From sequence record MT322327.1: a DNA stretch of 64,000 bases; one strand, 5' to 3'. This DNA comes from Escherichia phage SSBS18_WS_10_728. Numbering within the stretch: the first letter of the stretch is position 1; the number at the start of each line of letters is the position of its first letter. Below the pieces are notes generated by a model, which worked only from the letters and a program-made list of their open reading frames with translations, searched no databases and was not told where the DNA came from. Positions 5,375 through 48,405 of this stretch are shown one piece after another. The position numbers and the translations under genes were made by a program.

Positions 5375-5403
5375 ATATTAAAGGGTATCAAACACATTGT
5401 CAA
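5375..5403 (-). promoter_or_regulatory. sigma70-like promoter for the tRNA cluster, with palindromic spacer
   Basis: Minus strand: -35 TTGACA, 17-bp spacer, -10 TAATAT; spacer is part of hairpin AAGGGTAT...ATACCCTT. Confidence 0.5.
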
Positions 5404-5421
5404 TACCCTTTTTAAAACTTT

Positions 5422-6837
5422 TTACCAGATGTAACGGTCAATCATTACTGCTTTGAGCATTACGCTGGTTGGGTCAAACTTCTCACCACCAAGCAGAGCT
5501 TTTAAAGTGGCTGGAGAGAACCCTGATACCATTGCTACACCGTTATCCTTAACAGATACTTCGCAAGTACCATTACGGTTTGCTAAGTACCAGAATACCA
5601 GTTGTGGCATTTCGTATCCAGCTTTTTTGTACTTACTACGAATTGCTTCAAAGTTTGTACGACCATTTGCACCATCAACCTGATTAAACTCCATATCAGA
5701 GAAGATGATAAGCTTACTTGGCATATCTTTCTGAGTCAAGTTGTTTCTCTTACCTGTCTCAAGAATACGGTCAAAAGCTGCTTGTAAATTAGTTGAACCA
5801 TACTCAACATGACGCATCACCTGACGATGACGGTTTCGTAAATCACCACTCAGTTCGATGAAGTGAGGGTTTGTTGAGTAAACCATTAACTCATTCTTAA
5901 AGCAACCAGTATTGCGTTCTGCTACATACAAGGCAAGTGATACACCAATATCAAGTGCAGTGATTGAACCAAGATTCACCCAAGACATTGAGCTTGAAAC
6001 ATCAGTCATACACAAGATGTTCTCACCTTCTGCCATCCAGTTTGGTAGTGCTTTCCACTGCTCATTGGCAACATCTGCATTACCATGTTTGATAGACTTA
6101 ATCACATCGTATGGGTAAACAGCACCAGCGTTAATCTTAGCCTCACCCTTTGAGAGTGACTCGATGTAAGCTTTGTAACGTTCTCCATCTTTACGGTTAA
6201 AGAGTTTTTGGTAACGTGCAGCAGCAAGAGAAGGAATCTTACTGTAGTCGATTTTACCAAACTCATTAGCAGAGATTTTTTGCTCAACTGTATCAGAAAG
6301 TGCAGACAACAGTGTGCGGTACTCTTTCTCACTCAAGTTAGCAAACTTGCAGAAACGTTTTACAAACTGTTTGTGGCGTGGTTTTACTCGTGGTAACCAC
6401 TTGGCTGCTAAACCTGCTGTTTCAGGGTCTAGTAATGCTGCTTCTAAGTGCTTAAAGGCATCTGTCTCAAAACGAGTACCTACGAAGATTTTGAAGTCAT
6501 CAAAACGACCAAGCTCTGCAATCTTATCCATAATGCGAAGAACCTGTGTAGGCTCTAAAACTTTATCTTCAATTGCTTGAAGTAAAACAGTTCTGAAGGC
6601 TTTACGCTCACCCATACCTTCTCGTACATCTCGCATGTGAAGCAAAATACGAACTGCAACATCAACATCCTCACGCAAAGCTTTGTAGAACAAATCTGGT
6701 AAGATTTCTACATTACTACGGCTGGAACCAGCAGCTTTGTAAAAGTCCACAAGAGCAGACATTGATGAAGTATGGTTTACAGCACCATTTTCAGTTCGAC
6801 CTGCATGAAGGTGCGCATGTTTAAATAATTCGCTCAT
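5422..6837 (-). CDS. vWA-domain protein (MIDAS motif DxSxS), possibly DUF2828-like
   Basis: 471-aa ORF; motif MTDVSSSMS; GAGAG RBS upstream. Confidence 0.55.
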   Translation of the reverse strand: MSELFKHAHLHAGRTENGAVNHTSSMSALVDFYKAAGSSRSNVEILPDLFYKALREDVDVAVRILLHMRDVREGMGERKAFRTVLLQAIEDKVLEPTQVLRIMDKIAELGRFDDFKIFVGTRFETDAFKHLEAALLDPETAGLAAKWLPRVKPRHKQFVKRFCKFANLSEKEYRTLLSALSDTVEQKISANEFGKIDYSKIPSLAAARYQKLFNRKDGERYKAYIESLSKGEAKINAGAVYPYDVIKSIKHGNADVANEQWKALPNWMAEGENILCMTDVSSSMSWVNLGSITALDIGVSLALYVAERNTGCFKNELMVYSTNPHFIELSGDLRNRHRQVMRHVEYGSTNLQAAFDRILETGKRNNLTQKDMPSKLIIFSDMEFNQVDGANGRTNFEAIRSKYKKAGYEMPQLVFWYLANRNGTCEVSVKDNGVAMVSGFSPATLKALLGGEKFDPTSVMLKAVMIDRYIW

Positions 6838-6918
6838 ATTTTACTCTCTTCTCTCATTTGTTGTTTGATGTGACAGACTTTAGAGCAACTTTGTAGAGTC
6901 TGTCAACACCTTTTAAAA

Positions 6919-7290
6919 TTATTTTTTGAGAGTCGCTACAGCAGAGAACGTTGGTTTGTTATCTGTCTGAGGTTGACCAGCACTATCAGGGGTCTTCTTA
7001 GTGTCTGCTGCAAGTGCTTTCATCTCACCTGCTGAGTGAGTAAAGATGGTCTTACCGACCTCAATCATACTCTTGATGTTTACGTCATCTGTGTTTAACC
7101 CGAACTCTGCAAGCTTAGCAGCATCCCTTGTAACAATCGCCTCAAACAGCTTTGCAGCAAACTCAGCAGAATTATCAATGGTCAGTTGAGCTTTTACAAG
7201 TGAACTTTTGTTACGAGAGCCTTTTGGTCTTCCAGATGGGTTTCCAGATTGGCCTTTTTTAAACTGGCCTTTGTTTGTTCTGTTTTTCAT
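6919..7290 (-). CDS. hypothetical protein with basic Gly/Pro-rich N-terminus
   Basis: 123-aa ORF, AAGAGG RBS. Confidence 0.5.
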   Translation of the reverse strand: MKNRTNKGQFKKGQSGNPSGRPKGSRNKSSLVKAQLTIDNSAEFAAKLFEAIVTRDAAKLAEFGLNTDDVNIKSMIEVGKTIFTHSAGEMKALAADTKKTPDSAGQPQTDNKPTFSAVATLKK

Positions 7291-7539: not shown

Positions 7540-7701
7540 ATGAGAAAATCAAATAACCCGAAGAAAGGTAAAAATACCAATCACTGTAAGGAATCAAAAA
7601 GGGTAGAGTTACTCTACTATTCATCCTCTGAAATTGGTCTGTACCTGTTCTTTCAAAATTACAGAAGACAAGAGGATTATCTATGTGTAGTTCCCAATTA
7701 G
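7540..7701 (+). CDS. hypothetical small protein
   Basis: AAGGAGA RBS before ATG at 7540; downstream of TTGTCAA-type promoter motifs at 7420-7450. Confidence 0.35.
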   Translation: MRKSNNPKKGKNTNHCKESKRVELLYYSSSEIGLYLFFQNYRRQEDYLCVVPN

Positions 7702-7916
7702 AAATCGCAGATATTATAGATTTATATCAAACTGCAAAGAGTCATGGCTATATAACCTCAATTGGAAAGAATAGTCACTATGATGCTTTGACTGGAATGT
7801 ATTTCAGGGCAATGGCTCAATCTAGTGAACAACACTTAGTGGTTTCTTCCAGTGAGTTTACTTCGTTTCTCTATTGCAGCAAAATCATAAATCGCAGGAG
7901 AACTGAAAAATGTTAA
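7683..7916 (+). CDS. hypothetical protein
   Basis: 77-aa ORF with AAGAGGA RBS. Confidence 0.45.
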   Translation: MCSSQLEIADIIDLYQTAKSHGYITSIGKNSHYDALTGMYFRAMAQSSEQHLVVSSSEFTSFLYCSKIINRRRTEKC

Positions 7917-14752: not shown

Positions 14753-14787
14753 AAGAGCCTCCTTAATTGGGGGCTTTTTAATTTTTA
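14753..14787 (+). terminator. rho-independent terminator ending the plus-strand block
   Basis: Hairpin AGCCTCC...GGGGGCT followed by TTTTTAATTTTT. Confidence 0.55.
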
Positions 14788-14789
14788 TA

Positions 14790-16362: not shown

Positions 16363-16387
16363 AAAAAAGCCCCATTTAAGGGGCTGT
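16363..16387 (-). terminator. rho-independent terminator ending the minus-strand small-gene array
   Basis: Minus strand: hairpin AGCCCC-TTAAAT-GGGGCT followed by TTTTTT. Confidence 0.55.
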
Positions 16388-16423
16388 AAAGGTATCTGGG
16401 GCTATTTAGCCCCGTTGCGGCGT

Positions 16424-16672: not shown

Positions 16673-16745
16673 TTTAGAATCTCCTAGTTTAAGGACTTTG
16701 TTTAGTGGGGAAGGTCATTCCCTCCCGTTGATTAGTAATTTACTG
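16670..16745 (-). promoter_or_regulatory. conserved leader cassette, type A hairpin
   Basis: Minus sense GGGAGGGAATGACCTTCCCC-ACTAAACAAAGTCCTTAAACTAGGAGATTCTAAAATG. Confidence 0.6.
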
Positions 16746-17003
16746 CATGTTGGCGTATGTTGCAAGCCTTTTTTCGTTGTATTTTGTAAGAATCTCACAA
16801 GATAAAACATCATATTTTGTAATAGCGTTGCCTTTGTCGAGGTCAAAGAATCCAAATGTTTTACCATCTTTGAAGCCCACAACCTCGTAAGACTCTTTGA
16901 TGATTTCACCATTGAACAAATCACTTTCGATACGGTGGAATAATGCTACATCCTCTTTATCGGTTGCAATCTGTAACAGTGTGGTCAATTCTACGTGTTC
17001 CAT
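16740..17003 (-). CDS. hypothetical small protein (array gene b)
   Basis: 87-aa ORF with variant leader. Confidence 0.5.
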   Translation of the reverse strand: MEHVELTTLLQIATDKEDVALFHRIESDLFNGEIIKESYEVVGFKDGKTFGFFDLDKGNAITKYDVLSCEILTKYNEKRLATYANMQ

Positions 17004-17060
17004 TTTGAATCTCCAGTTTAGGATTTTATTTAGTGGGGGAGGTTATCCCCCGTTAAAAGA
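17001..17060 (-). promoter_or_regulatory. conserved leader cassette, type A variant
   Basis: Variant leader with GGGGGAGGTTATCCCCC hairpin. Confidence 0.5.
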
Positions 17061-17064
17061 CACT

Positions 17065-17595
17065 TTATAGATTCTTGGTTGTCTCGTCAATATCTTTTTC
17101 AATATCTTTTAAAGTTTTTTCTAAGTTCTTGATATTGAACGTTAAACCTTCACCGAGGGTCTGAGAGTAACCGTTAGGACGATGGTCGTAAAGCTCGATA
17201 TCTTCCACATCGGATAGGCTTACTCTTTCACCATTTGCAGCGTAGGCCATTGAAACAGTATTTACAGGGGCTTTATAGAACTTGTTTAAGGACTTGATAG
17301 AACGTTCGTAAGCCATTTTATAACCGTTTAAAAGGCTTTTAACGTGGTTGTGAACGTTTTTACACTCATCCAAGTAAATCCCTAAGAATAGCGGTAATAA
17401 TTCTGCTACAGCTTGCATAAAGTGAGAGACTACAACTGTTGCAACATTACGACGATGAACGTAATAAGCCCCGTTTTCTGATTTAGTGATGGTTGCAAAG
17501 TGTACCCCATTGCAGCGAAATTCATAGGTATCTTTAACAGGCTTAGACATTACAGCATTTGAGCGAATGTAGTTGATAGCTTGAAATTTGTTCAT
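17065..17595 (-). CDS. hypothetical protein (array gene c)
   Basis: 176-aa ORF with conserved leader. Confidence 0.5.
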   Translation of the reverse strand: MNKFQAINYIRSNAVMSKPVKDTYEFRCNGVHFATITKSENGAYYVHRRNVATVVVSHFMQAVAELLPLFLGIYLDECKNVHNHVKSLLNGYKMAYERSIKSLNKFYKAPVNTVSMAYAANGERVSLSDVEDIELYDHRPNGYSQTLGEGLTFNIKNLEKTLKDIEKDIDETTKNL

Positions 17596-17660
17596 TTTTG
17601 AATCTCCTAGTTTAAGGACTTTATTTAGTGAGGAAGTTCATTCCCTCACCGTTGATTAGT
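17593..17660 (-). promoter_or_regulatory. conserved leader cassette, type A
   Basis: Leader plus hairpin GTGAGGAAGTTCATTCCCTCAC. Confidence 0.6.
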
Positions 17661-17818
17661 AATTTACTTGTTTTGATATCTGATTGCAAGCAATTTTTTA
17701 AGTTTATCTATAAAGAATCTTTTAAGTTAATCCCTTTTAGATAAACCCCCTCGAACAAAGTTACCAATGTCAAGGGGTATTGTCAACACTTTTTTAAAAG
17801 TTTTTTGTAAGTTATTGA

Positions 17819-18160
17819 TTAACTGATGAATATTTTTTCAGGTTTTACATAGCTGATACGCTGACTTTTTAGGAGGTCATCCCAGATTAGCGCGGCAATA
17901 TGAGAATAACCGGATTCACGTAAGAGCTTCATTGCTTTACTTCTCGTTTCGAATCTGGTTGCATAGTACTCACTATTCAAAACAGTTTTATTCCCTTCGT
18001 TATCTGTATGGATAATCTGCATCACTTGAAAGGGGCTGGTATCCTCGCCTTTGTTCCATTGCTCAAAGTATTTTAGGCACTGCATAGGTGACAGCTTATC
18101 GCTTACTTGAGTTGACCAAGATGAATTCTCTTTATCAGTAATTACAGTTACATAAGCCAT
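17819..18160 (-). CDS. hypothetical protein (array gene d)
   Basis: ORF 17819..18205; start set to ATG 18160, which directly follows the conserved leader. Confidence 0.5.
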   Translation of the reverse strand: MAYVTVITDKENSSWSTQVSDKLSPMQCLKYFEQWNKGEDTSPFQVMQIIHTDNEGNKTVLNSEYYATRFETRSKAMKLLRESGYSHIAALIWDDLLKSQRISYVKPEKIFIS

Positions 18161-18235
18161 TTTTGAATCTCCTAGTTTAAGGACTTTATTTAGTAGGGAG
18201 GTCATCCCTCCCGTTGATTGACAATTTACAGACTT
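18160..18235 (-). promoter_or_regulatory. conserved leader cassette, type A
   Basis: Leader plus hairpin GGGAGGTCATCCCTCCC. Confidence 0.6.
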
Positions 18236-18248
18236 TTATCAGGCTTGT

Positions 18249-18482
18249 CTAGTCTTTTTCAATGATAATTTCATATTGACCATCTACGCTGTCAAAATAG
18301 ACACCATCTTCATCTTCTGTCTTAAAGTAACATTGTATATCATCACTGGCGGGGTAGTCTTGTCTTGCTATCTGACAGACCTGAACGGCATTTTCTTTAC
18401 TTCCTGTAAACTCCTCAAGCCCTTTAAAATCACATGAATGACCATTACAAATAGAAAGGATAAGATAAACGGTTGTCAGCAT
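18249..18482 (-). CDS. hypothetical small Cys-containing protein with hydrophobic N-terminus (array gene e)
   Basis: 77-aa ORF; non-conserved upstream region with AGAGGG RBS. Confidence 0.45.
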   Translation of the reverse strand: MLTTVYLILSICNGHSCDFKGLEEFTGSKENAVQVCQIARQDYPASDDIQCYFKTEDEDGVYFDSVDGQYEIIIEKD

Positions 18483-18545
18483 GATTGAAGCCCTCTAAAT
18501 GGCCCTGTGTGGGCCTTAAGTTAAAAGTTGGTGTCTTTGTACTGC

Positions 18546-19109
18546 TTATCCTAAAAAGTCCTTTAAATTGCGTTCTGTGAGGTTTTCCGTGATTTTATCC
18601 AGTAGGTCACAAAACACGGAACTATCACCGCTATTCTGTACAATTTTTGCAATACTCAACAAATCATCATCAATATAGCCCAAATTGCGGTTAGTTGTAT
18701 CAGGTACAAAGAAAGGTGCATACATCGCACTAAATTTTGTTGAGTGTATGCTAACAATCCAATTTTTATCAAAGTATCCGGTAAAGCTGGCAATTTCGCT
18801 CATGTTGTCACAAGAATAATCATCCTCTAGTTCTTCCTCTGGGATATCCATTTCAATAACAATCACGTCCTGCGTTTCCATTTGGAAAGCGGCCGTAATA
18901 AGCCCCGACTCTAAGGCACTTTGAATGCAGCGTTCACGGATGTAAGAGTCTTCCTCATCTTCCATACATTCCATTTTGATAACCTTATCCATTGGGTAAA
19001 CGTAGAAACAATCGTCCATGTAGGAGCAGTTCCAGATACCTTCCGGCTTGTCGCCACCATTCAGCAGGTTTACAAAGTTTTTCAGAGTAGTTCCGTGATA
19101 GCATTTCAT
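18546..19109 (-). CDS. hypothetical acidic protein (array gene f)
   Basis: 187-aa ORF with conserved leader. Confidence 0.5.
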   Translation of the reverse strand: MKCYHGTTLKNFVNLLNGGDKPEGIWNCSYMDDCFYVYPMDKVIKMECMEDEEDSYIRERCIQSALESGLITAAFQMETQDVIVIEMDIPEEELEDDYSCDNMSEIASFTGYFDKNWIVSIHSTKFSAMYAPFFVPDTTNRNLGYIDDDLLSIAKIVQNSGDSSVFCDLLDKITENLTERNLKDFLG

Positions 19110-19200
19110 TTTTGAATCTCCTAGTTTAAGGACTTTGTTTAGTGGTAAAGCTCTTTATCTGGGGCTTACTGTACAGACTTATAAGCCCCTTGTAAAGTAC
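19107..19200 (-). promoter_or_regulatory. conserved leader cassette, type B hairpin
   Basis: Minus sense AAAGTACTTTACAAGGGGCTTA-loop-TAAGCCCCAGATAAAGAGCTTTACCACTAAACAAAGTCCTTAAACTAGGAGATTCAAAAATG. Confidence 0.6.
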
Positions 19201-19201
19201 T

Positions 19202-19405
19202 TTATCGGTTATTTTTGACAACTTTTAAAACTGCAAGATAACCTAAGCAATAAGAGTCGCCGAAGAGAGTCCTACCCATGAAAGAATCCTCTTTAATATC
19301 CTTTGCAGTGACAGTTTTTTCTACGCCGTGGGAAAGGACTACATCGCCAACTTTGATATCTTTGATATGAGTAGTTTCAATGTTTAAACCGTTGATAATA
19401 GCCAT
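19202..19405 (-). CDS. hypothetical small protein (array gene g)
   Basis: 67-aa ORF with conserved leader. Confidence 0.45.
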   Translation of the reverse strand: MAIINGLNIETTHIKDIKVGDVVLSHGVEKTVTAKDIKEDSFMGRTLFGDSYCLGYLAVLKVVKNNR

Positions 19406-19470
19406 TTTTGAATCTCCTAGTTTAAGGACTTTGTTTAGTGGGAAGGTAATTCCCTCCCCGTTGATGTGTA
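19403..19470 (-). promoter_or_regulatory. conserved leader cassette, type A
   Basis: Leader plus hairpin GGGAAGGTAATTCCCTCCCC. Confidence 0.6.
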
Positions 19471-19505
19471 ATTTAATCTATCTGAAAACCAGTGTCAACA
19501 GTTTT

Positions 19506-19910
19506 TTAGAGTTCTGCATAAATTGCGTCGCAGATATTACGAAAATCGTGATTTGTTAAGTTACGTTGCAACCATGTTGCGAAAAAGTCAGCGATTGCAA
19601 AATTAGCGTCATACTCAACAGATAGCCACACTTTAACAGCAAATCGAAACATTTTCAAGTCTAATTCTTTATTCATAACCTTTGATTTGCCTAACATGTC
19701 AGCCATCTCATATTGTGCACCGTCTAGCGTGATACCTGCTGCAACGTCAGCCAATGAGTTTTTTACGCTTTCAACGTCTAAGATAACACTTTGAATCTTA
19801 CCAATAATGTTGTGTAATGTTTCGTCCGGTGCTGATGACGTGATAACATTAATCCGGTTGACGGTCAAACGCGCTTTTAAGATTGATAACTCACGATTAT
19901 TAATAGCCAT
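19506..19910 (-). CDS. hypothetical protein (array gene h)
   Basis: 134-aa ORF with variant leader. Confidence 0.5.
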   Translation of the reverse strand: MAINNRELSILKARLTVNRINVITSSAPDETLHNIIGKIQSVILDVESVKNSLADVAAGITLDGAQYEMADMLGKSKVMNKELDLKMFRFAVKVWLSVEYDANFAIADFFATWLQRNLTNHDFRNICDAIYAEL

Positions 19911-19995
19911 TTTAGAATCTCCAATTTAGGATTTAGTTAGTAAAGCTCTTTATCTGGGGCTTACTTTATCGAACTATAAGCCCCTTGTAAAGTAC
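19908..19995 (-). promoter_or_regulatory. conserved leader cassette, type B variant
   Basis: Type B hairpin GGGGCTTA...TAAGCCCC with variant RBS region GGAGATTCTAAAATG. Confidence 0.55.
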
Positions 19996-19996
19996 T

Positions 19997-20269
19997 TTAT
20001 GCTAAATGCAGCTTTTTACCTTTTACCATGATGTAAGTTGATGCGCTATTACTATAAACATCCTGATAAATTCTGCGCAAACGGCCTTCGTAGTATACTT
20101 TCCAACTGGTTGGAATCTTTTTCCCGTATCCTGTAGCAGTTTTTTGGAGTCCTGCAACTTGCCAATCTAAGATATGTTGTTCGGCTTGTAAATCCTCGAA
20201 GTGCATTACACCGTTCACATAGTGACGAAGGGTTACATTTAAAGTGCGACCGTTGTTAGTAGTATACAT
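19997..20269 (-). CDS. hypothetical protein (array gene i)
   Basis: 90-aa ORF with conserved leader. Confidence 0.5.
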   Translation of the reverse strand: MYTTNNGRTLNVTLRHYVNGVMHFEDLQAEQHILDWQVAGLQKTATGYGKKIPTSWKVYYEGRLRRIYQDVYSNSASTYIMVKGKKLHLA

Positions 20270-20340
20270 TTTTGAATCTCCTAGTTTAAGGACTTTACTT
20301 AGTGGGGAGGTTATTACCTCCCGTTGATTAGTAATTTACT
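20267..20340 (-). promoter_or_regulatory. conserved leader cassette, type A
   Basis: Leader plus hairpin GGGGAGGTTATTACCTCCC. Confidence 0.6.
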
Positions 20341-20980: not shown

Positions 20981-21070
20981 CTTTGAATCTCCTAGTTTAA
21001 GGGTTAATTTGATAAATCTCTTTATCTGGGGCTATCATATCCGCTTGTTAGCCCCGTGTAAAGAAATCTA
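20978..21070 (-). promoter_or_regulatory. conserved leader cassette, type B variant
   Basis: CTTTATCTGGGGCTA...TAGCCCCGTG hairpin with leader. Confidence 0.5.
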
Positions 21071-21071: not shown

Positions 21072-21584
21072 TTAGTTCTTAAAGATATTCATCACTGAAT
21101 CTTTTAATGCTTCCAAGCGTTCTAATACTTCAGATTCTGCGTCTGCGTTGTTCACTTCCTCTTTTAGTCTGTCATCTAAATCATCGCCGTCACTGTAGCA
21201 CCAATCGAAAGCATAACCAATATAAAAACTCTCTAAAACCGTGCTACCGTTTGCATCTACAACTTTCGCGGCAATGTTATACTCTGAAGCCTCTAAATCC
21301 CTTTCTAGTTCTTTCTGTAAGCTCGTGTAAGCCTCTTTCGATGGATTCTCACGGCCTTGTTTTGCATAGTCACTTGAAAGCTGCTTAAGGCTGTAATGTA
21401 AAGGGATTGCATATTTAAATTCATTACGCTGACAGTTAAGATTTTTAATAGTTACACCGCCTTGATGGTCATCTGTAAATTTCCAATTATCAAGGTTATG
21501 ACTTGCTTCGTAGCAATTAACAGCCTCATAAATGATGGAAAATTTTTCTTTTACAACTTCAAAGGTAGCGTCTACAGTTTTCAT
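21072..21584 (-). CDS. hypothetical acidic protein (array gene l)
   Basis: 170-aa ORF with conserved leader. Confidence 0.5.
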   Translation of the reverse strand: MKTVDATFEVVKEKFSIIYEAVNCYEASHNLDNWKFTDDHQGGVTIKNLNCQRNEFKYAIPLHYSLKQLSSDYAKQGRENPSKEAYTSLQKELERDLEASEYNIAAKVVDANGSTVLESFYIGYAFDWCYSDGDDLDDRLKEEVNNADAESEVLERLEALKDSVMNIFKN

Positions 21585-21678
21585 TTTTGAATCTCCTAGT
21601 TTAAGGACTTGATTTAGTGGTAAAGCTCTTTATCTGGGGCTTAAGATATCAACTTTTAAGCCCCTTGTAAAGTACTTT
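21582..21678 (-). promoter_or_regulatory. conserved leader cassette, type B
   Basis: Same architecture as 19107..19200. Confidence 0.6.
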
Positions 21679-21679
21679 A

Positions 21680-21937
21680 TCAGATTAAATTGCCAGTTAA
21701 TGATAAGTGCATTTTGTAACCTTGTTTAGTAAACACGTTCACTTTACCGATGGATTTTACACCTTTAAAGAGGTTATTTGAACTGCGTTTTAAGGTTAAC
21801 TTTTTATCAGCCTTCACGCCCCATCTTACAGCAGTTTGTTTTCCGTTGTCAACCACTTTCCCGCCTAACTTTTTCGCCATGATGCGAGCGTCATCACGAG
21901 TTTTTGCAGGAACTACAACGTTTTTGATAATAGCCAT
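21680..21937 (-). CDS. hypothetical basic protein (array gene m)
   Basis: 85-aa ORF with leader. Confidence 0.5.
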   Translation of the reverse strand: MAIIKNVVVPAKTRDDARIMAKKLGGKVVDNGKQTAVRWGVKADKKLTLKRSSNNLFKGVKSIGKVNVFTKQGYKMHLSLTGNLI

Positions 21938-22024
21938 TTTAGAATCTCCAATTTAGGATTTAGTGGTAAAGCTCTTTATCTGGGGCTTACTTTATCTAAC
22001 TATAAGCCCCTTGTAAAGTACTTT
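21935..22024 (-). promoter_or_regulatory. conserved leader cassette, type B variant
   Basis: Near-identical to the copy at 19908..19995. Confidence 0.55.
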
Positions 22025-22025
22025 A

Positions 22026-22406: not shown

Positions 22407-22493
22407 TTTTGAATCTCCTAGTTTAAGGTTAATGTAGTAAAGCTCTTTATCTGGGGCTTAAGATATCAGCTTTTAAGCCCCCTGTAAAGTACT
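22404..22493 (-). promoter_or_regulatory. conserved leader cassette, type B
   Basis: Type B hairpin plus CTAGGAGATTCAAAAATG. Confidence 0.55.
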
Positions 22494-22494
22494 T

Positions 22495-22701
22495 TTATTT
22501 ATCGTAGTAGTAAATTGCTGTCTGTCTTGTAAACTTCTTAGTGTTTCTTGTAAGGTAGCAATTAGAATTAATAGCCGTTTCTACATAGTTGCAATAGTCG
22601 GCTTCTGATATTCTGGACCATACGCCACAGATTTTCATGTAAAAACGTTTTGCCTTTGTGTTAACGTTAGTTGTAACCATTAATTCACGATAGTAAGTCA
22701 T
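22495..22701 (-). CDS. hypothetical small Cys-containing protein (array gene o)
   Basis: 68-aa ORF with partial leader. Confidence 0.45.
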   Translation of the reverse strand: MTYYRELMVTTNVNTKAKRFYMKICGVWSRISEADYCNYVETAINSNCYLTRNTKKFTRQTAIYYYDK

Positions 22702-27618: not shown

Positions 27619-27650
27619 AAAAAAGGCCGCCGAAGCAGCCTTTTAAGAAA
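27619..27650 (-). terminator. rho-independent terminator (possibly bidirectional)
   Basis: Hairpin GGCCGCCGAAGCAGCC flanked by A-run and T-run. Confidence 0.5.
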
Positions 27651-27657: not shown

Positions 27658-28767
27658 TTAGATTTCACGTTTACGTTGAGAGATGAGTTCACCAGCAGTA
27701 CCAACGATGACATGCAAAGCTTCAGTCTTACCATCCCATGCTTTCAGCACTTTACGTTGATTATCAACGATTGCTGCAACTTCATAACGAGAGGAACGCA
27801 TCTTCATATCGTTGTAATCAGTTGGAACAGATACAACATCTCGTGGATGGACACGAACCTTCAGGATGGTATCACCTGAGAAGCAACGAACATAATCCCA
27901 AGCACCAACATGAAGACCTTGAGAGCAAGTTACGTTACGGTTGTTATCAACCATCCAACGTGGCATCTCTACAATGTTACCCAAATCATTAGGTACTTTG
28001 TAGGTGTGAGAGTCAACCAGCTTGCCTTCACGAGTAGAGACTTTCTTCCAACCAATGATATAGCCTTCTTCATCAATTTCAACATCAAGGTGTGATACAA
28101 ATACCCAAAGTTGTTCTACAGAATCTTTAGATGGGTTTTCCATCAGTTTTTCGAAGAACATTACAAGTCGTTCAAAACCTTTATCACCAGTTTTCATCAT
28201 ATGAAGAATACGGTCAACCAGAGTAGAACGCATCTCAACAGCACCGTAGAAGAGCTTGTCACCTTTGATTGTGATAGCACCCTGAGTGAAGTTTTCGATA
28301 GACTTACGAATGTTCATCAGTTCAAATGCTTTCTTGAACTCACCTTTCACAACATGAACTACAATCTCTTGATAGTTCGGATGAGTAGACTCAACAATTT
28401 CAGATTCTGAACCGTAAGTCATAATTACAGAGTCACCAGTAATCATGTACTCAATCTTGTCATCTTTCTGCATAGCTTCATGCAGTTTATTTACTGGAGC
28501 TTTCTGTACAGCATCTTTAACGGCCTTTTCAACTGGTTTGCCAGCTTTCTTTTTAACTGACTTAGCAACTTGCTTTAAGGTCTTCTTAGCTGGTGTAGAA
28601 GTCACCTTCTTCTTACCTTTTAAGGTTGCTTCATGACGCTCTACAGCACGACCAACTGAACGGGTTGAAGTATTGAACTTCTGTGCAATAGCTGTTTTAG
28701 TCAGCTTACCTTCTTTAACCAGTTCGTAAATTTCTGCGTCAATCTGTGCTTTAGTTTTAGTAGTCAT
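27658..28767 (-). CDS. hypothetical protein with N-terminal HTH and Lys-rich linker
   Basis: 369 aa; HTH-like segment TKTAIAQKFNTSTRSVGRAVER. Confidence 0.5.
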   Translation of the reverse strand: MTTKTKAQIDAEIYELVKEGKLTKTAIAQKFNTSTRSVGRAVERHEATLKGKKKVTSTPAKKTLKQVAKSVKKKAGKPVEKAVKDAVQKAPVNKLHEAMQKDDKIEYMITGDSVIMTYGSESEIVESTHPNYQEIVVHVVKGEFKKAFELMNIRKSIENFTQGAITIKGDKLFYGAVEMRSTLVDRILHMMKTGDKGFERLVMFFEKLMENPSKDSVEQLWVFVSHLDVEIDEEGYIIGWKKVSTREGKLVDSHTYKVPNDLGNIVEMPRWMVDNNRNVTCSQGLHVGAWDYVRCFSGDTILKVRVHPRDVVSVPTDYNDMKMRSSRYEVAAIVDNQRKVLKAWDGKTEALHVIVGTAGELISQRKREI

Positions 28768-28813
28768 CTTATTACTCTCTCTTGTTAGTTAATAAATCAT
28801 TTTGTAAGGCTAT

Positions 28814-28842
28814 TCTAAGGGGCTTTGAAGCCCCTTGTCAAA
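28814..28842 (-). promoter_or_regulatory. sigma70-like promoter with palindromic 17-bp spacer
   Basis: Minus strand: -35 TTGACA, spacer AGGGGCTTCAAAGCCCC, -10 TAGAAT; upstream of 27658..28767. Confidence 0.55.
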
Positions 28843-28846: not shown

Positions 28847-31213
28847 TTAATCGTAAATTGTAGTCCCTTCTGGAACACACTTCACATCAAAGCCTAAGAA
28901 CTTACTCACTTCGATGGGTGACACTTTATTCCAATCTAAATGAGAAAGCAAGAAGTTTTCTTGTTTTCTTTTTGAAAGGTAGTTTGTCACCTTAATGACC
29001 ATACGGTCACCAGCTTTCTTAATTTTCTTGTACAGCTTTGTATCGTTGTCAAGGCAGTCTTTCAAAGTTTGCAATCTACTAATAGTGTAAGTGTATGCAA
29101 ACGGTGCAGCAACGTATTGGATTTTACCAAACATTGCCTCAACAGCGTCTTCATTGCCTTCTAAGAAGATAGTTTTGTTTGTGTCTCGTGAATAGCAATA
29201 GCCACGAGAAATCTTCCTGTTATTGAACGTAAAGTTTCTGGCAATAATCCAACTGCTTGTAAGGTCAAGGACACCATTCATATAGATACGTGTCATATAT
29301 CTGTTATGGTTAATCCAGTGAACATCAGTTAAGCTGTCGTTCAAGAGCTTCTCATCTACTTCAATCCAGTCTTCTGGTATCTTTTTCCAATTTGCTTTTC
29401 GGAAAACATAGACTGTCTTTCCAATGACATTGGCAACTGACTTAGCTACATCATCTGGAGATGAGCAAAAACATTCACCATCAACAGTATCACCTACTGC
29501 CTTGATATAAAGTTGAGGCTCTTCAATTGTGTCTAAGTCTTCTGACACCTCTGTGTATGAGGCTACACCTTCTGCTGGAACAGCTTTCCAGAGTTTTACA
29601 ACACCTCTTACAGCTTCTTTACGCTGATAATGGTGTTCCTTATCAGACATCTTCACAATCTTTAACAAGCTTTTATCAAGTTTGTGCAGATTGATTAAGT
29701 CGTCTAACTCTTTCTCAGTAGAGAATACAAAGACAATACCGTTGTATCTGTGAAACAGATTTGACTCACTGGCATAGTCTCGACATGCACCACGCAAGAT
29801 TTGATTGCGTCCTACAGTCTTCTCAGTACCATTTTTATTGCGACGGTCATTGATAACAAACAAAAACTGTTCAATTTGGCTTTTACGCATTGCGCCAAAG
29901 ATATTGAACATACTTGCCTCTTGAGTGTAGGAAAGTGATGTTGCACGAATCTTACTCTCTAAAGAGTTGAACTTGACATAAGCAACTGGGTCATAAAGAT
30001 AATCTACTTTAGGGATATTGTTCCCGTTCCTATCAACCTTAATATTACCTTTACCGTCACGTTCATAAATGACTGAGCCGTCTTCTGCGTAGATAATTCC
30101 ACGACGAATGTTTAGTAATTCTTCTTCCAGAGAATCAAGCTTAACACCACCCCACTCTAGCTTTGGACACACAGCATTAAACATCTCTCGTGAGTTCAAA
30201 CGTAACTCAGCATAAGCCTGTGCAGCATCCATGAGTGTAGGTTGGTTATTAACTTTCTTGATAACATCCTTTGTAATTGCTTCGGTTATCTTTTTAGTAG
30301 CCTCAATGATAACATTTTTTGTCGTGTCATTCATCTGCAATGCTTCACGAGAAGCTGCAATAGCAACTGAACCAATAGGCATGTAGATGTTTACAAGGTC
30401 TACGCTCCTACGGAAAAATTCTGGCAAGACTTTGAAGAAATCATCACCAAGTAATGCTTCCATATTAACAGGGTATGCAATGTTACCCATCACCACATTA
30501 AACTCTGTCCTATTAGCACCAGAACGCCAGCTTTGCTTATGAATCATAGCATCGTAAACACCTTCTTCACGGGCAATGACGTTCATATCTGCTAGTACAT
30601 CGTCATACTCGATATTACTTTCCGGTTTTACAGCAAAGTATGAGTATACGTGACCAGCTTCTTCAAAGAACTTTGAAATACGGTGGTCAGCAACTGCTAC
30701 ACGTACAGCTAAGCCATTTGGCTCTTTTGTTGGGTTAGTAGTAAGTTTAGTCACTTGAGGGATACCATTCTCAAGATAAACAGAGTACTTATTAACAACA
30801 CCTCCAACATAGCTAGACACTGTGAATGACTGCGCAATTGCAAATGGGGATTTTGAGCCGATACCCATTGCACCAATGTAGTCATTAGAGTCATTCTTCG
30901 TAGAAGCCCCGTAGTTTAGGTACAAACTCATAACTTTATCATGAGTCAATCCAGTTCCAAAATCACGAACTTCAAAGTAAGGCTCAAAACGAGTAGGTAA
31001 ATGCACATGGAACGGGATGTTCTCTTTTCCAGCCTCTTTCTGAGCATCTACTGCGTTACATGACAGTTCACGAATCACTGCCCTTTCTTTAAAGGTATAT
31101 ACACCAGAACTTAAAAGGCTGAACATTTCAGGTGTCATTGTAATCTGTGCTTGAGACGTCTCTAAAGAAGTTGAACTCTTAATCACTTCTGCGTGGTCGT
31201 TTACCATGCGCAT
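28847..31213 (-). CDS. GHKL-family (Hsp90/HtpG-like) ATPase domain protein
   Basis: 788 aa; N-box RELSCNAVDA, G1 box VRDFGTGLT, G2 box GAMGIGSKS. Confidence 0.55.
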   Translation of the reverse strand: MRMVNDHAEVIKSSTSLETSQAQITMTPEMFSLLSSGVYTFKERAVIRELSCNAVDAQKEAGKENIPFHVHLPTRFEPYFEVRDFGTGLTHDKVMSLYLNYGASTKNDSNDYIGAMGIGSKSPFAIAQSFTVSSYVGGVVNKYSVYLENGIPQVTKLTTNPTKEPNGLAVRVAVADHRISKFFEEAGHVYSYFAVKPESNIEYDDVLADMNVIAREEGVYDAMIHKQSWRSGANRTEFNVVMGNIAYPVNMEALLGDDFFKVLPEFFRRSVDLVNIYMPIGSVAIAASREALQMNDTTKNVIIEATKKITEAITKDVIKKVNNQPTLMDAAQAYAELRLNSREMFNAVCPKLEWGGVKLDSLEEELLNIRRGIIYAEDGSVIYERDGKGNIKVDRNGNNIPKVDYLYDPVAYVKFNSLESKIRATSLSYTQEASMFNIFGAMRKSQIEQFLFVINDRRNKNGTEKTVGRNQILRGACRDYASESNLFHRYNGIVFVFSTEKELDDLINLHKLDKSLLKIVKMSDKEHHYQRKEAVRGVVKLWKAVPAEGVASYTEVSEDLDTIEEPQLYIKAVGDTVDGECFCSSPDDVAKSVANVIGKTVYVFRKANWKKIPEDWIEVDEKLLNDSLTDVHWINHNRYMTRIYMNGVLDLTSSWIIARNFTFNNRKISRGYCYSRDTNKTIFLEGNEDAVEAMFGKIQYVAAPFAYTYTISRLQTLKDCLDNDTKLYKKIKKAGDRMVIKVTNYLSKRKQENFLLSHLDWNKVSPIEVSKFLGFDVKCVPEGTTIYD

Positions 31214-32101: not shown

Positions 32102-32124
32102 TAAAAAGGCTCCCGTAGGAGCCT
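32102..32124 (-). terminator. rho-independent terminator
   Basis: Minus strand: GGCTCC-TACG-GGAGCC then TTTTTAATTT. Confidence 0.55.
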
Positions 32125-32138
32125 CTTATCATATACTT

Positions 32139-33920
32139 TTAAAGCTGCTTGTCAATATTATTTCGAATATCACCAAGAGTTGTGTAGCCGAACTGCTCAG
32201 AGTCGCTAAAGACCAAGCGTAAAGCACAAGCTGGGTGTTCAAGTGCATCTGCAAAGCTTTGGAACCCATAGCCATCTACAGCTTTCAGATTTTCACCATC
32301 CCACATAGGTGCTACACCACCAAAAGCAGACTTCTTAACACCGCTGTCTGTTTTAGGGTCTTTTGCAAGCATAATCTCTTTACCACCAATGCTTGCCAGA
32401 GTTGCTTTAACAGCAAATGCAAAGGTGTCACGAGTCATGTACTGGTAAGTGTAAGAACCTACACCAAACACTACGTTAGAGCTTGCAAAACCCATTTCAT
32501 ACAAACGTTTCAGGATTTCGTTTGCACGTTCCAACGTGATAGAGTCACCATAAATAAGCCCGATATGCTCATCCAGTACTTTAAAGCCTTTAGAGTTGAT
32601 AGTTCCTCCAAAGATATTATACAGTGTCTTGATAGCTCCATCAATCTCCGCTACAGGACGTGTGACAACGTTTGCAGAACCAACCATATAAGCGTTTTTC
32701 AACAGCACTGTATCAGCAACTTCAAAGTCTTCTCTGTCAACAACCATTTCGTAGCCTTCTGACAGTAGCCACCCAGCAATACCATAGTTGATGTTTTCAA
32801 GCTTCATGTTCAGAACAGCATTCAACATTGTGTCGCTGGCTTCCAGCTTGCTTAGGTGTTCGTAATAAGCCTTTTTAGCACACTCTAAGTGGATTGCTTT
32901 ATAGCCTGTGACAATATGTACAGGGTCTCCAGAGTCAGGACGAATTACCAGTTTGCCATCACGTTCCATAATCTCTTTACGGAGTTCTGGGAGTATCACT
33001 GATACAGTTCTCCAGAAGTTATAAGTATCTGAAACAACACTTGCAATACCAGTTGGGTAAGTTTCTGTTAAGAAACGACGGAAGGTTTGTAACTCACCTT
33101 TAAAGCGTCTTTCTTCTTCAATCAACTCATTCCCACCTTCCCAAGCAATGTTTGCACACATGACAGAGTGCTCGGTGGCTGGTACAGAACTACCAATATC
33201 AGAGATTGGGTAGGACTGCCCATAGATGCGTTTAGCTGTATACACAGCAGGGAAGCTATCAGTCCCTTTAAAGCTGGTTAAGTGACCTACAGCGTTAAAT
33301 GCGTCATCAGTAAAGCCGGACATACCACGCATAGCAAAATCATGGCACTGATAAGGTAAATGTAAGTCATTGTCACAAGTAAGGTCAGACCACTTCTTAC
33401 AGATACGTTTGTAGTGCAATGCAATAGTTGCAATGGTACAAGCCTTCCAAATCTCAGCAGAGAAAGCATCTTCCAGATACCCCGCTACCCAATGGAAACC
33501 TGAAACAGTGTTCTGGAAGACAACCATTGGTACACGCATAGGAACAACTGTGCCTTCTTCTACAGCGTATACTTCAACTGGTAGATAACCTAAGTCGTGA
33601 AGTGCTTCCCAATGTTCTCGACCAATAGCATCTTTACCCAGAACACCGTTCATGACTTCTAAGATTTCGTCAATTGCTTCTTTTTTGTCACGTTCAAAGA
33701 AGGTGGCGTTCCAGTGGTCTATCAAGTAATCTTTAACAAAACGTTGAATACCAAAAGCTACTACACCATCAATTGCTAAAGGGCTGTTAAACCATTTATC
33801 ACTACGTGGTGTCAGGTTAAACATCAAGTACTCTGTCGCACTAGGATACTGATAAATATGGCCAGACTTGTAAGCATCCGCGTTTAAACCTGCTGGTACT
33901 GCATAAAGTGATTTAGTCAT
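32139..33920 (-). CDS. nicotinamide phosphoribosyltransferase-like (NAMPT/NadV family; possibly Namat)
   Basis: Motifs VPATEHSVM, VVSDTYN, IRPDSGDP; start set to ATG 33920 with GAGAGA RBS. Confidence 0.75.
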   Translation of the reverse strand: MTKSLYAVPAGLNADAYKSGHIYQYPSATEYLMFNLTPRSDKWFNSPLAIDGVVAFGIQRFVKDYLIDHWNATFFERDKKEAIDEILEVMNGVLGKDAIGREHWEALHDLGYLPVEVYAVEEGTVVPMRVPMVVFQNTVSGFHWVAGYLEDAFSAEIWKACTIATIALHYKRICKKWSDLTCDNDLHLPYQCHDFAMRGMSGFTDDAFNAVGHLTSFKGTDSFPAVYTAKRIYGQSYPISDIGSSVPATEHSVMCANIAWEGGNELIEEERRFKGELQTFRRFLTETYPTGIASVVSDTYNFWRTVSVILPELRKEIMERDGKLVIRPDSGDPVHIVTGYKAIHLECAKKAYYEHLSKLEASDTMLNAVLNMKLENINYGIAGWLLSEGYEMVVDREDFEVADTVLLKNAYMVGSANVVTRPVAEIDGAIKTLYNIFGGTINSKGFKVLDEHIGLIYGDSITLERANEILKRLYEMGFASSNVVFGVGSYTYQYMTRDTFAFAVKATLASIGGKEIMLAKDPKTDSGVKKSAFGGVAPMWDGENLKAVDGYGFQSFADALEHPACALRLVFSDSEQFGYTTLGDIRNNIDKQL

Positions 33921-33966
33921 CTTTTTAATCTCTCTCAAAATGGGGCTTGTAAGCCCCTATAAAGTT

Positions 33967-35648: not shown

Positions 35649-35699
35649 TTTATCTCCAAAATAAAAAGGGAACCTTTACAGTCCCCTTATAGTATCTGT

Positions 35700-36020
35700 T
35701 TACTGAGCTACTTTCAAGATGCTTGTGAACGAGATTTCACTCTCATCCATAAACTCTTTTGCTTCTCCAGTAACTTTTACAAAGTTATCTAGGCAGATAA
35801 TCTTCTTATCTTTCTTGCTGTAGGTTAGTTTAACCTTTTCAATATCTTTCTTAGAGCTTTCCTCTTCATTGAAGAGTTTTACAGCTTCTTTGAATGGTAG
35901 ATATGAGCCGTCATCATCACTAATGAACCCTGTACCACAATAGTAGTAGTTATGTTCTTTAGCCATAAACTGGCACAGTACGAAAATCTGTAATTTACGA
36001 GTGTTATAAACTTTGCTCAT
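35700..36020 (-). CDS. hypothetical protein
   Basis: 106-aa ORF. Confidence 0.45.
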   Translation of the reverse strand: MSKVYNTRKLQIFVLCQFMAKEHNYYYCGTGFISDDDGSYLPFKEAVKLFNEEESSKKDIEKVKLTYSKKDKKIICLDNFVKVTGEAKEFMDESEISFTSILKVAQ

Positions 36021-48187: not shown

Positions 48188-48405
48188 TATTTAAACCTCT
48201 ATCTCAATTTATGAAGAGTACCAATTCTAATTTGTTGATACTCTATTGTCAAATATTAATTACTGGAAGTTGTGCTTATCTTTAGAAGCTGCTTTACGTG
48301 CAGTTTTTCCAGTTCTCACACGCTTCTCTTCATAGTATTTTGCTGGTTTACCAGCAGTGGCTTTTAAGGAATCCCCAAAAACTTGTTCAAATGCTTTAGA
48401 GTGTT

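What the first reader, a model, noticed from the sequence alone, without database searches (positions are those of the whole stretch)
28814..28842. sigma70-type promoters whose 17-bp spacer is a perfect palindrome
TTGACA-AGGGGCTTCAAAGCCCC-TAGAAT on the minus strand places a hairpin-forming palindrome exactly in the spacer. The same design appears at 5375-5403, where the -35 lies inside the hairpin AAGGGTAT...ATACCCTT, and in the type B cassettes, where TTTACA abuts the GGGGCTTA/TAAGCCCC hairpin. The palindrome could double as the upstream gene's terminator or as an operator, a compact terminator-promoter overlap.
Basis: seen in the sequence. Interest (0 to 1): 0.5.

Follow-up and report, generated by a model that had tools for sequence, protein, structure and literature searches.

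The report
Promoters overlapping hairpins in Felix O1-like phage
A Felix O1-type phage places host-type early promoters on top of short GC-rich hairpins, the same compact promoter/stem-loop cassette design (PeSL) already described in T4-type phages, so the finding is real but is a new example of a known kind.

Summary
The window is a Felixounavirus genome. The site lies between rIIA and rIIB. It reads TTGACA-AGGGGCTTCAAAGCCCCT-TAGAAT on the minus strand (28841..28812). The palindrome is 9+2+9 and shares one base with each hexamer.

The design is not chance. It is kept in 30 relatives and recurs at 5403, 6906, 48252 and in six repeated "type B" cassettes, where the -10 (TAnnnT, 17 nt from TTTACA) sits in the hairpin loop.

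Stems show compensatory changes across genera. Non-Watson-Crick pairs in type B are G.U 126 to A.C 2, so the sense strand is what pairs. I infer this is RNA read through from the upstream gene.

The hairpins lack the U tract that this genome's canonical terminators have. They are therefore attenuators or 3'-end elements at best, not classical terminators. An operator reading is disfavoured.

The anatomy, the flanking ORFans and the single-gene deletions with both ends inside neighbouring cassettes match the PeSL cassettes of T4-type phages RB49/phi1. I confirmed the same layouts in RB49. There is no sequence homology, and I found no report of them in Felix O1-like phages.

Verdict: new member of a known kind. 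No transcript data exist, so function is inferred.

The parts
28836..28841 (-). -35 hexamer TTGACA of the rIIB promoter, 5 nt after the rIIA stop codon
   Evidence: Kept in the relatives down to 76% rIIB identity, except one TTGACT.
28817..28836 (-). Interrupted palindrome AAGGGGCTT-CA-AAGCCCCTT (9+2+9). As RNA it folds as GGGGCU-UCAA-AGCCCC, about -12.5 kcal/mol.
   Evidence: GGGGCT/AGCCCC is kept in all relatives down to 76% rIIB identity except two that carry a C.A mismatch. The centre is CA or TG.
28812..28817 (-). -10 hexamer TAGAAT, 18 nt from the -35 and 45 nt upstream of the rIIB ATG (28767)
   Evidence: TAGAAT or TAAAAT in relatives.
28847..31213 (-). rIIA gene. Its read-through transcripts would carry the hairpin.
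27658..28767 (-). rIIB gene served by the promoter
5375..5411 (-). Promoter TTGACA-N17-TAATAT (5403..5375) ahead of the 26-tRNA cluster. The -35 is in the loop of AAAGGGTAT/ATACCCTTT (5380-5411). Tail TTTAATAT scores 3.0, close to a real terminator for the upstream 471-aa gene.
6868..6909 (-). Promoter TTGACA-N18-TAAAGT (6906..6877). The -35 lies in the left arm and the discriminator in the right arm of a 12-13 bp hairpin.
   Evidence: The distant clade keeps pairing through G.U changes.
48215..48252 (-). Promoter TTGACA-N17-TAGAAT (48252..48224) with the -10 in the loop of AGAGTATCAA/TTGGTACTCT
   Evidence: The distant clade has GGGAGTAY/GTACTCCC with the -10 still in the loop.
19146..19204 (-). 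Type B cassette copy: TTTACA-N17-TACAGT. Inner hairpin GGGGCTTA/TAAGCCCC at 19161-19189. Outer helix includes the -35 region.
19941..19999 (-). Type B cassette copy (TTTACA-N17-TAAAGT, hairpin 19956-19984)
21013..21070 (-). Type B cassette copy (TTTACA-N17-TATGAT, hairpin GGGGCTA/TAGCCCC 21028-21055)
21621..21679 (-). Type B cassette copy (TTTACA-N17-TATCTT, hairpin 21636-21664)
21967..22025 (-). Type B cassette copy (TTTACA-N17-TAAAGT, hairpin 21982-22010)
22438..22496 (-). Type B cassette copy (TTTACA-N17-TATCTT, hairpin 22453-22481)
16700..20340 (-). Region with type A cassettes: promoter TTGnnA-N17-TAAATT, then about 10 nt later a GGGAGG..CCTCCC hairpin in the 5' UTR. Hairpins at about 16709-16725, 17035-17051, 17628-17649, 18196-18212, 19440-19459 and 20305-20322. 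One promoter is at 19498..19470.
33942..33957 (-). The same GGGGCT-loop-AGCCCC hairpin between two genes with no promoter around it. It shows that the hairpin exists as an element in its own right.

Best explanation
The rIIA-rIIB site is a PeSL-type composite regulatory element of a Felix O1-like phage. It is a host sigma70 (early) promoter for rIIB laid over a GC-rich stem-loop.

The promoter restarts transcription 45 nt before rIIB. Transcripts initiated there do not contain the complete hairpin. The hairpin forms only in sense RNA that has read through from rIIA. There it most likely attenuates or pauses read-through and/or leaves a protective 3' stem-loop on the upstream message. This insulates the promoter and partly uncouples the two genes.

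The same logic, with the hairpin shifted relative to the hexamers, is used at 5403, 6906, 48252 and in the repeated type B cassettes of the ORFan-rich region. There the roughly 60-100-nt repeats also act as recombination substrates that delete or insert single genes.

Shown: the sequence anatomy, the conservation, the covariation, the strand asymmetry, the lack of a U tract, and the deletion junctions inside cassettes. Inferred: promoter activity, and what the hairpin does to RNA.
For: Identity and context:
- Felixounavirus, rIIA/rIIB intergenic region.

Promoter:
- The site scores 11/12 against consensus and is conserved in 30 relatives.
- In 93 distinct type B cassettes TTTACA is invariant. 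T/A/T of the -10 are kept in 86-87 of 93, with random middle positions, at 17-nt spacing.

Hairpin selection:
- 98.8-99% of cells are paired over 20 pairs.
- Compensatory changes occur at pairs 5-63, 9-59, 22-46 (G-C to U-A in Erwinia phage Omen) and 28-40. Slid controls give 30-57% paired.
- Sites 48252 and 6906 keep pairing in a distant clade through compensatory and wobble changes.

Sense strand:
- G.U 126 against A.C 2 among non-Watson-Crick cells.

Read-through role:
- Every overlapping hairpin ends at or before the predicted +1 region and follows a co-directional gene by <=25 nt.
- The first promoters of divergent units have no hairpin.
- The same hairpin occurs without a promoter at 33942.

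PeSL match:
- The published definition gives five stem-loop positions, including between -35 and -10 and overlapping the -10, plus reporter evidence for promoter and attenuator activity (PMC2839356).
- The same code run on RB49 found TTGACA-GGGGATC..GATCCCC-TATAAT and forms with the -10 in the loop.
- Flanking genes have unknown function.
- Gene content varies module by module.
- Deletions of genes c and d have both ends in neighbouring cassettes.
Against: There is no transcription start or 3'-end mapping for any Felix O1-like phage in the searchable literature. The Felix O1 genome paper did not list these promoters.

The hairpins lack U tracts. Scores are 0.01-2.1, and 3.0 at site 5403, against 3.5-5.3 for canonical terminators. 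Efficient intrinsic termination is therefore unlikely for type B and site 6906, and the true RNA-level effect is unknown.

The rIIB site itself shows almost no stem variation, so its own covariation evidence is nil. Two relatives carry a C.A mismatch. The rIIB site is single-copy next to core genes, unlike typical PeSLs. Type B copies are paralogues and the relatives are related, so the counts are not independent.
Confidence: 0.6

Rival explanations
1. The palindrome is a double-stranded DNA operator. A dimeric phage or host regulator binds GGGGCTT/AAGCCCC in the spacer and shuts off, or times, early promoters.
For: The site has perfect dyad symmetry in the core promoter, a classic operator position. 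The GGGGCT..AGCCCC motif recurs at 9 or more places, against 0.01 expected for the short-loop form. Arm centres are about 11 bp apart at rIIB and about 21 bp apart in type B, one and two helical turns.
Against: The gap between arms ranges from 2 to 14 nt. Other promoter hairpins have unrelated arm sequences: AGAGTATCAA, GTGTTGACAGACT and AAAGGGTAT. Pairing, not sequence, is conserved. Within one genome pair 28-40 is A-T, T-A or T.G, and Omen has GGTG/CACC. Wobble pairs break DNA symmetry and occur on one strand only. The same hairpin occurs away from any promoter.
Confidence: 0.07
2. The hairpins are RNA processing or stability signals, not terminators. The two-helix type B form (11 bp, a 3x3 internal loop, then 9 bp) is an RNase III-type site like those between phage T7 early genes. 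The short forms are 3' exonuclease blocks.
For: The type B structure has 20 pairs in two helices with covariation in both. There is no U tract. Pairing is sense-strand only. The comparison with T7 early-mRNA RNase III sites comes from my own knowledge and was not tested.
Against: No cleavage data exist. The rIIB, 48252 and 5403 stems are only 6-10 bp, too short for RNase III. Part of the outer helix (CTTTA/TAAAG) may be invariant because it is the -35 region, not because it pairs.
Confidence: 0.2
3. The hairpin acts in DNA. Cruciform or single-strand hairpin extrusion on supercoiled phage DNA modulates the promoter, for example by presenting the -10 as a single-stranded loop or by blocking the spacer.
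For: The -10 lies exactly in the loop in type B, at 48252, and in Omen, where GGGGGT-TAAAAT-CCCCCC makes the -10 the loop. The centre of the rIIB palindrome flips between CA and TG repeatedly on the same flank haplotypes. This suggests the DNA palindrome is physically active, possibly through template switching.
Against: A cruciform needs both strands to pair. The antisense strand would carry up to three A.C mismatches in many type B copies. The hairpin's register relative to the -35 and -10 differs from site to site, which argues against one RNA-polymerase-contact mechanism. Type A hairpins lie wholly downstream of the promoter.
Confidence: 0.08
4. The overlap has no joint function. These are ordinary gene-end hairpins and promoter-like hexamers that coincide in AT-rich intergenic DNA.
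For: Promoter-like hits are common: 76 found in 20 kb against 52 expected. -10-like hexamers also sit next to canonical terminators.
Against: Shuffles give 0.025 such overlaps against 2-7 observed. The hexamers, their spacing and the stems are conserved together across genera while flanks and loops drift. The same designs occur in RB49.
Confidence: 0.05

Closest known systems
PeSL (promoter-early stem-loop) cassettes of T4-type phages RB49/phi1, PST/T4 and nt-1/KVP40 (Arbiol et al. 2010, PMC2839356; Comeau et al. 2014, PMC4122927)
   Same: Both have a sigma70-like -35/-10 at 17+/-1 nt. Both have a G-run/C-run stem-loop that lies between the hexamers or overlaps the -10 or the -35. The upstream stop codon sits just ahead and an SD plus ATG just behind. 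Both are repeated in an ORFan-rich variable region, and recombination between copies removes or adds single genes. My own scan of RB49 shows TTGACA-GGGGATCACCGATCCCC-TATAAT and GGGAGTA-gTAAGAT-ACTCCC forms, the same two layouts as the rIIB site and type B/48252.
   Different: The host phage lineage differs: Ounavirinae, not Straboviridae. There is no detectable sequence homology beyond the SD region. Type B has a second, outer helix that includes the -35 region. The rIIB copy is single and sits between core genes. Mini-circles and promoter/attenuator activity were shown for RB49/phi1 but are untested here.
Canonical intrinsic (Rho-independent) terminators followed by a promoter
   Same: A GC-rich stem of similar stability (-10 to -14 kcal/mol) lies right after a gene end, and a promoter restarts transcription.
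   Different: There is no U tract. Scores are 0.01-2.1 for four of the five site classes, against 3.5-5.3 for ten canonical terminators. The elements overlap instead of lying in tandem. A tandem example in this window is the terminator at 27621-27644 followed by a promoter. Site 5403 (score 3.0), and an Omen element whose loop is the -35 and whose T tract is the spacer, bridge the two classes.
RNase III processing hairpins between phage T7 early genes (from my own knowledge)
   Same: Intergenic position. Two helices separated by an internal loop, about 20 bp in all, in the type B form. Would leave a 3' hairpin on the upstream mRNA.
   Different: No cleavage evidence. T7 sites do not overlap promoters. 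The rIIB hairpin is far too short.

Membership tests
PeSL cassettes | sigma70-like -35 and -10 hexamers about 17 nt apart | tested here: met
   rIIB is TTGACA-18-TAGAAT, and 17 nt in distant relatives. Type B is TTTACA-17-TAnnnT in 86-87 of 93 copies. Sites 5403, 6906 and 48252 also fit.
PeSL cassettes | Stable stem-loop, often poly-G/poly-C, in one of five positions relative to the promoter | tested here: met
   Between the hexamers at rIIB. Over the -10 in type B and 48252. Over the -35 at 5403 and 6906. Downstream of the -10 in type A. The same layouts were seen in RB49 with the same code.
PeSL cassettes | Upstream stop codon ahead, Shine-Dalgarno and start codon at the 3' end | tested here: met
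   The stop codon lies 5-20 nt before the -35. GGAGA-N6-8-ATG follows in type A/B, and GAGAGAG..ATG at rIIB.
PeSL cassettes | Repeated copies concentrated in a variable region next to genes of unknown function | tested here: met
   Repeat families D1-D4, D8 and D12 lie at 16.6-22.8 kb. Ten flanked proteins match only PHROGs of unknown function. Gene content varies among 22 loci. This is not met by the rIIB copy itself, which is single and shares only 25 of 32 nt with type B (D8).
PeSL cassettes | Recombination between copies creates single-gene indels | tested here: met
   In L032, L038 and L042, a 92-97-nt stretch aligns to both window cassettes that flank the missing gene. A 76-nt case lies between type A copies.
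PeSL cassettes | Excised mini-circles; measured promoter and attenuator activity | not testable with these tools
   Needs inverse PCR on infected cells and reporter fusions, as in PMC2839356.
PeSL cassettes | Carried by T4-type myoviruses; sequence related to the RB49/T4/KVP40 cassettes | tested here: not met
   The window is a Felixounavirus. blastn-short of 11 cassettes against 50 kb of RB49 gave E-values no better than shuffled RB49. I therefore file it as PeSL-like: same design, independent lineage.
Intrinsic terminator | GC-rich stem with a short loop | tested here: met
   The rIIB stem is 6-9 bp with a 2-4-nt loop, at -12.5 kcal/mol. Type B loops are 11-14 nt.
Intrinsic terminator | U-rich tract directly after the stem | tested here: not met
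   Tail scores are 1.83 for rIIB, 0.12-0.21 for type B, 0.01 for 6906, 2.07 for 48252 and 2.97 for 5403. Ten canonical terminators score 3.5-5.3. The terminator scan calls none of them.
Palindromic operator | Fixed half-site sequence and spacing across the regulated promoters | tested here: not met
   Gaps range from 2 to 14 nt. Arms are unrelated at 5403, 6906 and 48252. Compensatory and wobble changes occur within arms.
RNase III site | About two helical turns of duplex RNA, often with an internal loop | tested here: inconclusive
   Type B has 11 + 9 pairs around a 3x3 loop with covariation. The rIIB hairpin has 9 pairs at most. Cleavage cannot be tested with these tools.
Rfam families | Match to a curated covariance model | tested here: not met
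   No hit near gathering score in 16-53 kb.

The most novel reading that the evidence does not exclude
The promoter-embedded hairpins are not terminators at all. They are a distinct RNA-level punctuation system: processing or 3'-protection signals that act only on read-through transcripts, RNase III-type in the two-helix type B form. They would be fused to promoters in mobile cassettes that arose independently in Ounavirinae and in T4-type phages. That would make 'promoter-over-hairpin' a convergent general design of virulent coliphage early regions. A rarer variant is that the hairpin works in DNA and presents the -10 as a single-stranded loop.
Probability: 0.2. Interest if true: 0.6.

Novelty: new member of a known kind. 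Interest (0 to 1): 0.4.

Why it matters
Transcription of Felix O1-like phages is poorly understood. These phages are widely used for Salmonella typing, biocontrol and therapy. The original genome paper found few promoters and could not say how transcription passes the many terminators (PMC3185647).

These cassettes give a concrete map of likely early promoters. The type B cassette alone matches 1441 places in 288 phage records, all apparently Ounavirinae. They also explain the single-gene presence/absence mosaic of the ORFan region.

Finding the PeSL design outside T4-type phages, without sequence homology, suggests convergent evolution of compact promoter/hairpin modules. The missing U tract, together with one-strand wobble pairing, sharpens an open question: what do such hairpins actually do?

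Tried and rejected
- An Rfam scan of 16-53 kb at E<=1 gave only three chance-level hits.
- Literature searches for Felix O1/Felixounavirus promoters, hairpins or transcript mapping found only generic BPROM/neural-net predictions. One search with min_terms=2 was uninformative.
- Sequence homology between window cassettes and RB49 PeSLs was not better than shuffles.
- Canonical terminator reading: rejected for most sites because no U tract follows the stem.
- Operator reading: rejected because of variable spacing, unrelated arms and strand-specific wobble pairs.
- The first hairpin/promoter overlap test, at >=10/12 with perfect stems, caught only 2 sites because type B scores 9/12. It was replaced by an MFE comparison with in-coding decoys.
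- The L031 relative (59% rIIB identity) has a different hairpin over the presumed -10, but its -10 (TCTAAT) is doubtful, so I did not lean on it.

Full report
**What the window is**

A 2-kb query around the site matches 259 phage records. The best match is Escherichia phage CL1 at 98.6% identity, and nearly all hits are Felix O1-like myoviruses (Ounavirinae, Felixounavirus). The site lies between the genes annotated rIIA and rIIB. The window also holds a cluster of 26 tRNA genes on the minus strand. A long minus-strand block of early-type genes runs from about 52.9 kb down to 16 kb.

**Checking the observation**

On the minus strand, 28841..28812 reads TTGACA AGGGGCTTCAAAGCCCCT TAGAAT.
The spacer is 18 nt, or 17 nt if the poorer -10 TTAGAA is used. 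The quoted coordinates are off by 1-2 nt.
- The inverted repeat is AAGGGGCTT-CA-AAGCCCCTT (28817-28836). It is 9+2+9, borrows the last base of the -35 and the first base of the -10, and has a centre that is not self-complementary.
- The rIIA stop codon lies 5 nt before the -35. The rIIB ATG lies 45 nt after the -10.
- The second site is as described. At 5403..5375 the sequence is TTGACA-N17-TAATAT, with the -35 in the loop of AAAGGGTAT/ATACCCTTT.
- The type B cassettes are as described.

**Is it more than chance?**

- In 40 dinucleotide-preserving shuffles of the window, promoter-like sites (>=10/12) that enclose a perfect GC-rich hairpin of >=6 bp occurred 0.025 times per shuffle (maximum 1). 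Two were observed.
- I used promoter-like hits inside coding sequence as decoys. Of 18 intergenic hits with a downstream gene, 9 fold at <= -8 kcal/mol, against 11% of 148 decoys (Mann-Whitney p = 1.8e-4).
- Six of the nine are paralogous type B copies. The independent cases are rIIB, type B, 6906 and 48252, plus 5403, which heads tRNA genes and was not in that list.
- The 81-nt RNA around the rIIB site has z = -2.1 against shuffles.

**Anatomy of the other sites**

- Type B, six copies: TTTACA, one base, left arm GGGGCTTA, an 11-14-nt loop that contains the -10, then right arm TAAGCCCC, which forms the discriminator. The predicted start falls just past the right arm.
- Site 48252: TTGACA-N17-TAGAAT with the -10 in the loop of AGAGTATCAA/TTGGTACTCT.
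- Site 6906: TTGACA-N18-TAAAGT with the -35 inside the left arm and the right arm running from the -10 into the start region.
- Type A cassettes: TTGnnA-N17-TAAATT, followed about 10 nt later by a GGGAGG..CCTCCC hairpin in the 5' UTR.
- A GGGGCT-loop-AGCCCC hairpin also stands alone between two genes at 33942-33957, with no promoter.
- In every overlapping case the left arm lies upstream of the predicted start. Only RNA arriving from the upstream co-directional gene could therefore form the hairpin.
- The first promoters of the two divergent regions have no such hairpin. The sample is small.

**Conservation of the rIIB site**

In 30 IMG/VR relatives, the block TTGACA / GGGGCT-loop-AGCCCC / TA[G/A]AAT is kept down to 76% rIIB protein identity, while the downstream leader drifts. 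The more distant clade has GGGGCTGAAAAGCCCC with a 17-nt spacer. Stem variation is minimal. Two relatives have a C.A mismatch, so this site gives conservation but no covariation.

The two central bases are CA in 10 and TG in 13 close relatives, with no intermediates. Both states occur on the same flank haplotypes. The centre of the palindrome has therefore inverted repeatedly.

**Conservation and covariation elsewhere**

I collected 93 distinct type B cassettes from 28 loci.
- Anchored on the invariant TTTACA, positions +24, +25 and +29 are T, A and T in 86-87 of 93. Positions 26-28 are nearly random. This is the signature of a -10 element, TAnnnT at 17 nt.
- On a gap-free alignment of 37 cassettes, a two-helix structure is 98.8% paired. 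The outer helix has 11 pairs and includes the -35 region. The inner helix has 9 pairs. Versions with partners slid by 1-3 columns are 30-57% paired.
- Pair 28-40 is A-U 16, U-A 12, U.G 8. Pair 24-44 is C-G 18, U.G 17, U-A 1.
- Adding two cassettes from Erwinia phage Omen (Kolesnikvirus) gives a clean double change in the G-run, GG[G>U]G / C[C>A]CC. It also adds changes at pairs 5-63 and 9-59. That makes 4 pairs with compensatory changes, and the inner helix is 100% paired.
- Sites 48252 and 6906 keep their hairpins in a distant clade through compensatory and wobble changes, with the -10 still in the loop.
- Among non-Watson-Crick cells in type B, 126 are G.U and 2 are A.C. The structure therefore pairs on the sense strand only. 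This points to RNA read through from upstream. It argues against a symmetric duplex operator or a cruciform.

**Terminator or not?**

The promoter-embedded hairpins are as stable as the canonical terminators of the same transcription unit (-10 to -14 kcal/mol), but they lack the U tract. I scored the 15 nt after the last G:C pair with a d'Aubenton-Carafa/TransTerm-style tail score:

| Element | Tail score |
|---|---|
| Ten of the eleven hairpins scored as canonical terminators | 3.5-5.3 |
| Site 5403 | 2.97 |
| Site 48252 | 2.07 |
| rIIB | 1.83 |
| Type B | 0.12-0.21 |
| Site 6906 | 0.01 |

The consensus terminator scan calls none of the embedded hairpins. Site 5403 could be a fair terminator for the 471-aa gene ahead of the tRNA promoter. 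The rIIB hairpin, followed by the A/U-rich -10, could attenuate weakly. Type B cannot be a classical terminator.

In Omen there is one fully canonical overlap. The hairpin GGGGGC-TTTACA-GCCCC has the -35 as its loop, and its T tract serves as the spacer before TATACT. Another hairpin has a loop that is exactly the -10 TAAAAT.

**Comparison with what is known**

The literature search found the PeSL (promoter-early stem-loop) cassettes of T4-type phages.
- Arbiol et al. 2010 describe sigma70-like early promoters with a poly-G/poly-C stem-loop. The stem-loop lies between the -35 and -10, overlaps either box, or lies just upstream or downstream. The cassettes are concentrated in hyperplastic ORFan regions.
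- They report reporter evidence for strong promoter and attenuator activity.
- They also show that recombination between cassettes yields gene indels and mini-circles (PMC2839356; PMC4122927).
- I ran my own code on the RB49 ORF185-229 region. It found TTGACA-GGGGATCACCGATCCCC-TATAAT forms, with the hairpin filling the spacer as at rIIB, in six intergenic regions. It found -10-in-loop forms such as GGGAGTA-gTAAGAT-ACTCCC, as in type B and 48252, in six more.

The population features also match.
- The ten proteins flanked by cassettes hit only PHROGs of unknown function.
- Gene order is collinear, but single genes come and go among 22 loci.
- At deletion junctions, 92-97 nt of the relative aligns to both window cassettes that flank the missing gene: gene c in L032, and gene d in L038 and L042. 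A 76-nt case lies between type A copies.

Two things do not match.
- The phage is not T4-type.
- There is no sequence similarity to RB49 cassettes beyond the SD region, at E-values no better than shuffled RB49.

The type B cassette occurs at 1441 places in 288 phage records, all apparently Ounavirinae. None of the 15 papers in the library that contain 'PeSLs' concerns Felix O1-like phages. The Felix O1 and UAB_Phi87 genome papers list only generic promoter predictions.

**Conclusion**

They are best read as PeSL-like composite promoter/stem-loop cassettes in a second, unrelated myovirus lineage.

The promoter part and the sense-strand hairpin are well supported by comparative evidence. What the hairpin does to read-through RNA is inferred and open. 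The candidates are weak termination or pausing, 3'-end protection, and, for the 20-bp type B form, possibly RNase III processing.

An operator is unlikely. A DNA-level role is not excluded, but the one-strand wobble pairs and the variable register argue against it.

Noticed in passing
window 28826-28827, and L002-L030 at the same position: The two central bases of the rIIB palindrome are CA in 10 and TG in 13 close relatives, with no intermediates. Both states occur on the same flanking haplotypes. This looks like recurrent inversion of the palindrome centre, possibly by template switching or hairpin-mediated events.
   Followed up: partly
window 14745-16246: A 1.5-kb stretch without ORFs. It contains 22/11-nt direct repeats (TTTACGTAACTTTATAGCC) at 15954-16043 and two back-to-back GGGGCT/AGCCCC hairpins at 16368-16413. 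It may be a genome end or an origin-like region.
   Followed up: no
window 58526-58752: A run of 10-nt periodic GGT-rich repeats in a 441-nt gap between plus-strand genes (family D5).
   Followed up: no
window 9357-10034: Three tandem repeats of about 250 nt inside the ORF at 8916-10049, suggesting a protein with three repeated domains (families D18 and D20).
   Followed up: no
window 32104-32155 and 35666-35717: Good promoter-like hexamers abut canonical terminators directly: TTGACA-16-TATGAT and TTGAAA-17-TACTAT. A transcript started there would begin in the terminator stem.
   Followed up: no
L121 (Erwinia phage Omen), intergenic gaps 6754..7107 and 7679..7751: One element is a canonical terminator whose loop is the -35 (GGGGGC-TTTACA-GCCCC) and whose T tract is the spacer before TATACT. 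Another is a hairpin whose loop is exactly the -10 (GGGGGT-TAAAAT-CCCCCC).
   Followed up: partly
window cassette leaders (e.g. 21584-21600) versus L120 (RB49) 21672-21688: The leader TAGGAGATTCAAAAATG of the window cassettes is nearly identical to TAGGAGAATCAAAAATG in RB49 PeSLs. The distant-clade form of site 48252 (GGGAGTA..TAAGAT..TACTCC) resembles RB49 PeSL arms. Neither is statistically distinguishable from chance or convergence.
   Followed up: partly
window 228-5256: 26 tRNA genes lie in one minus-strand cluster, apparently driven by the 5403 promoter/hairpin element.
   Followed up: partly
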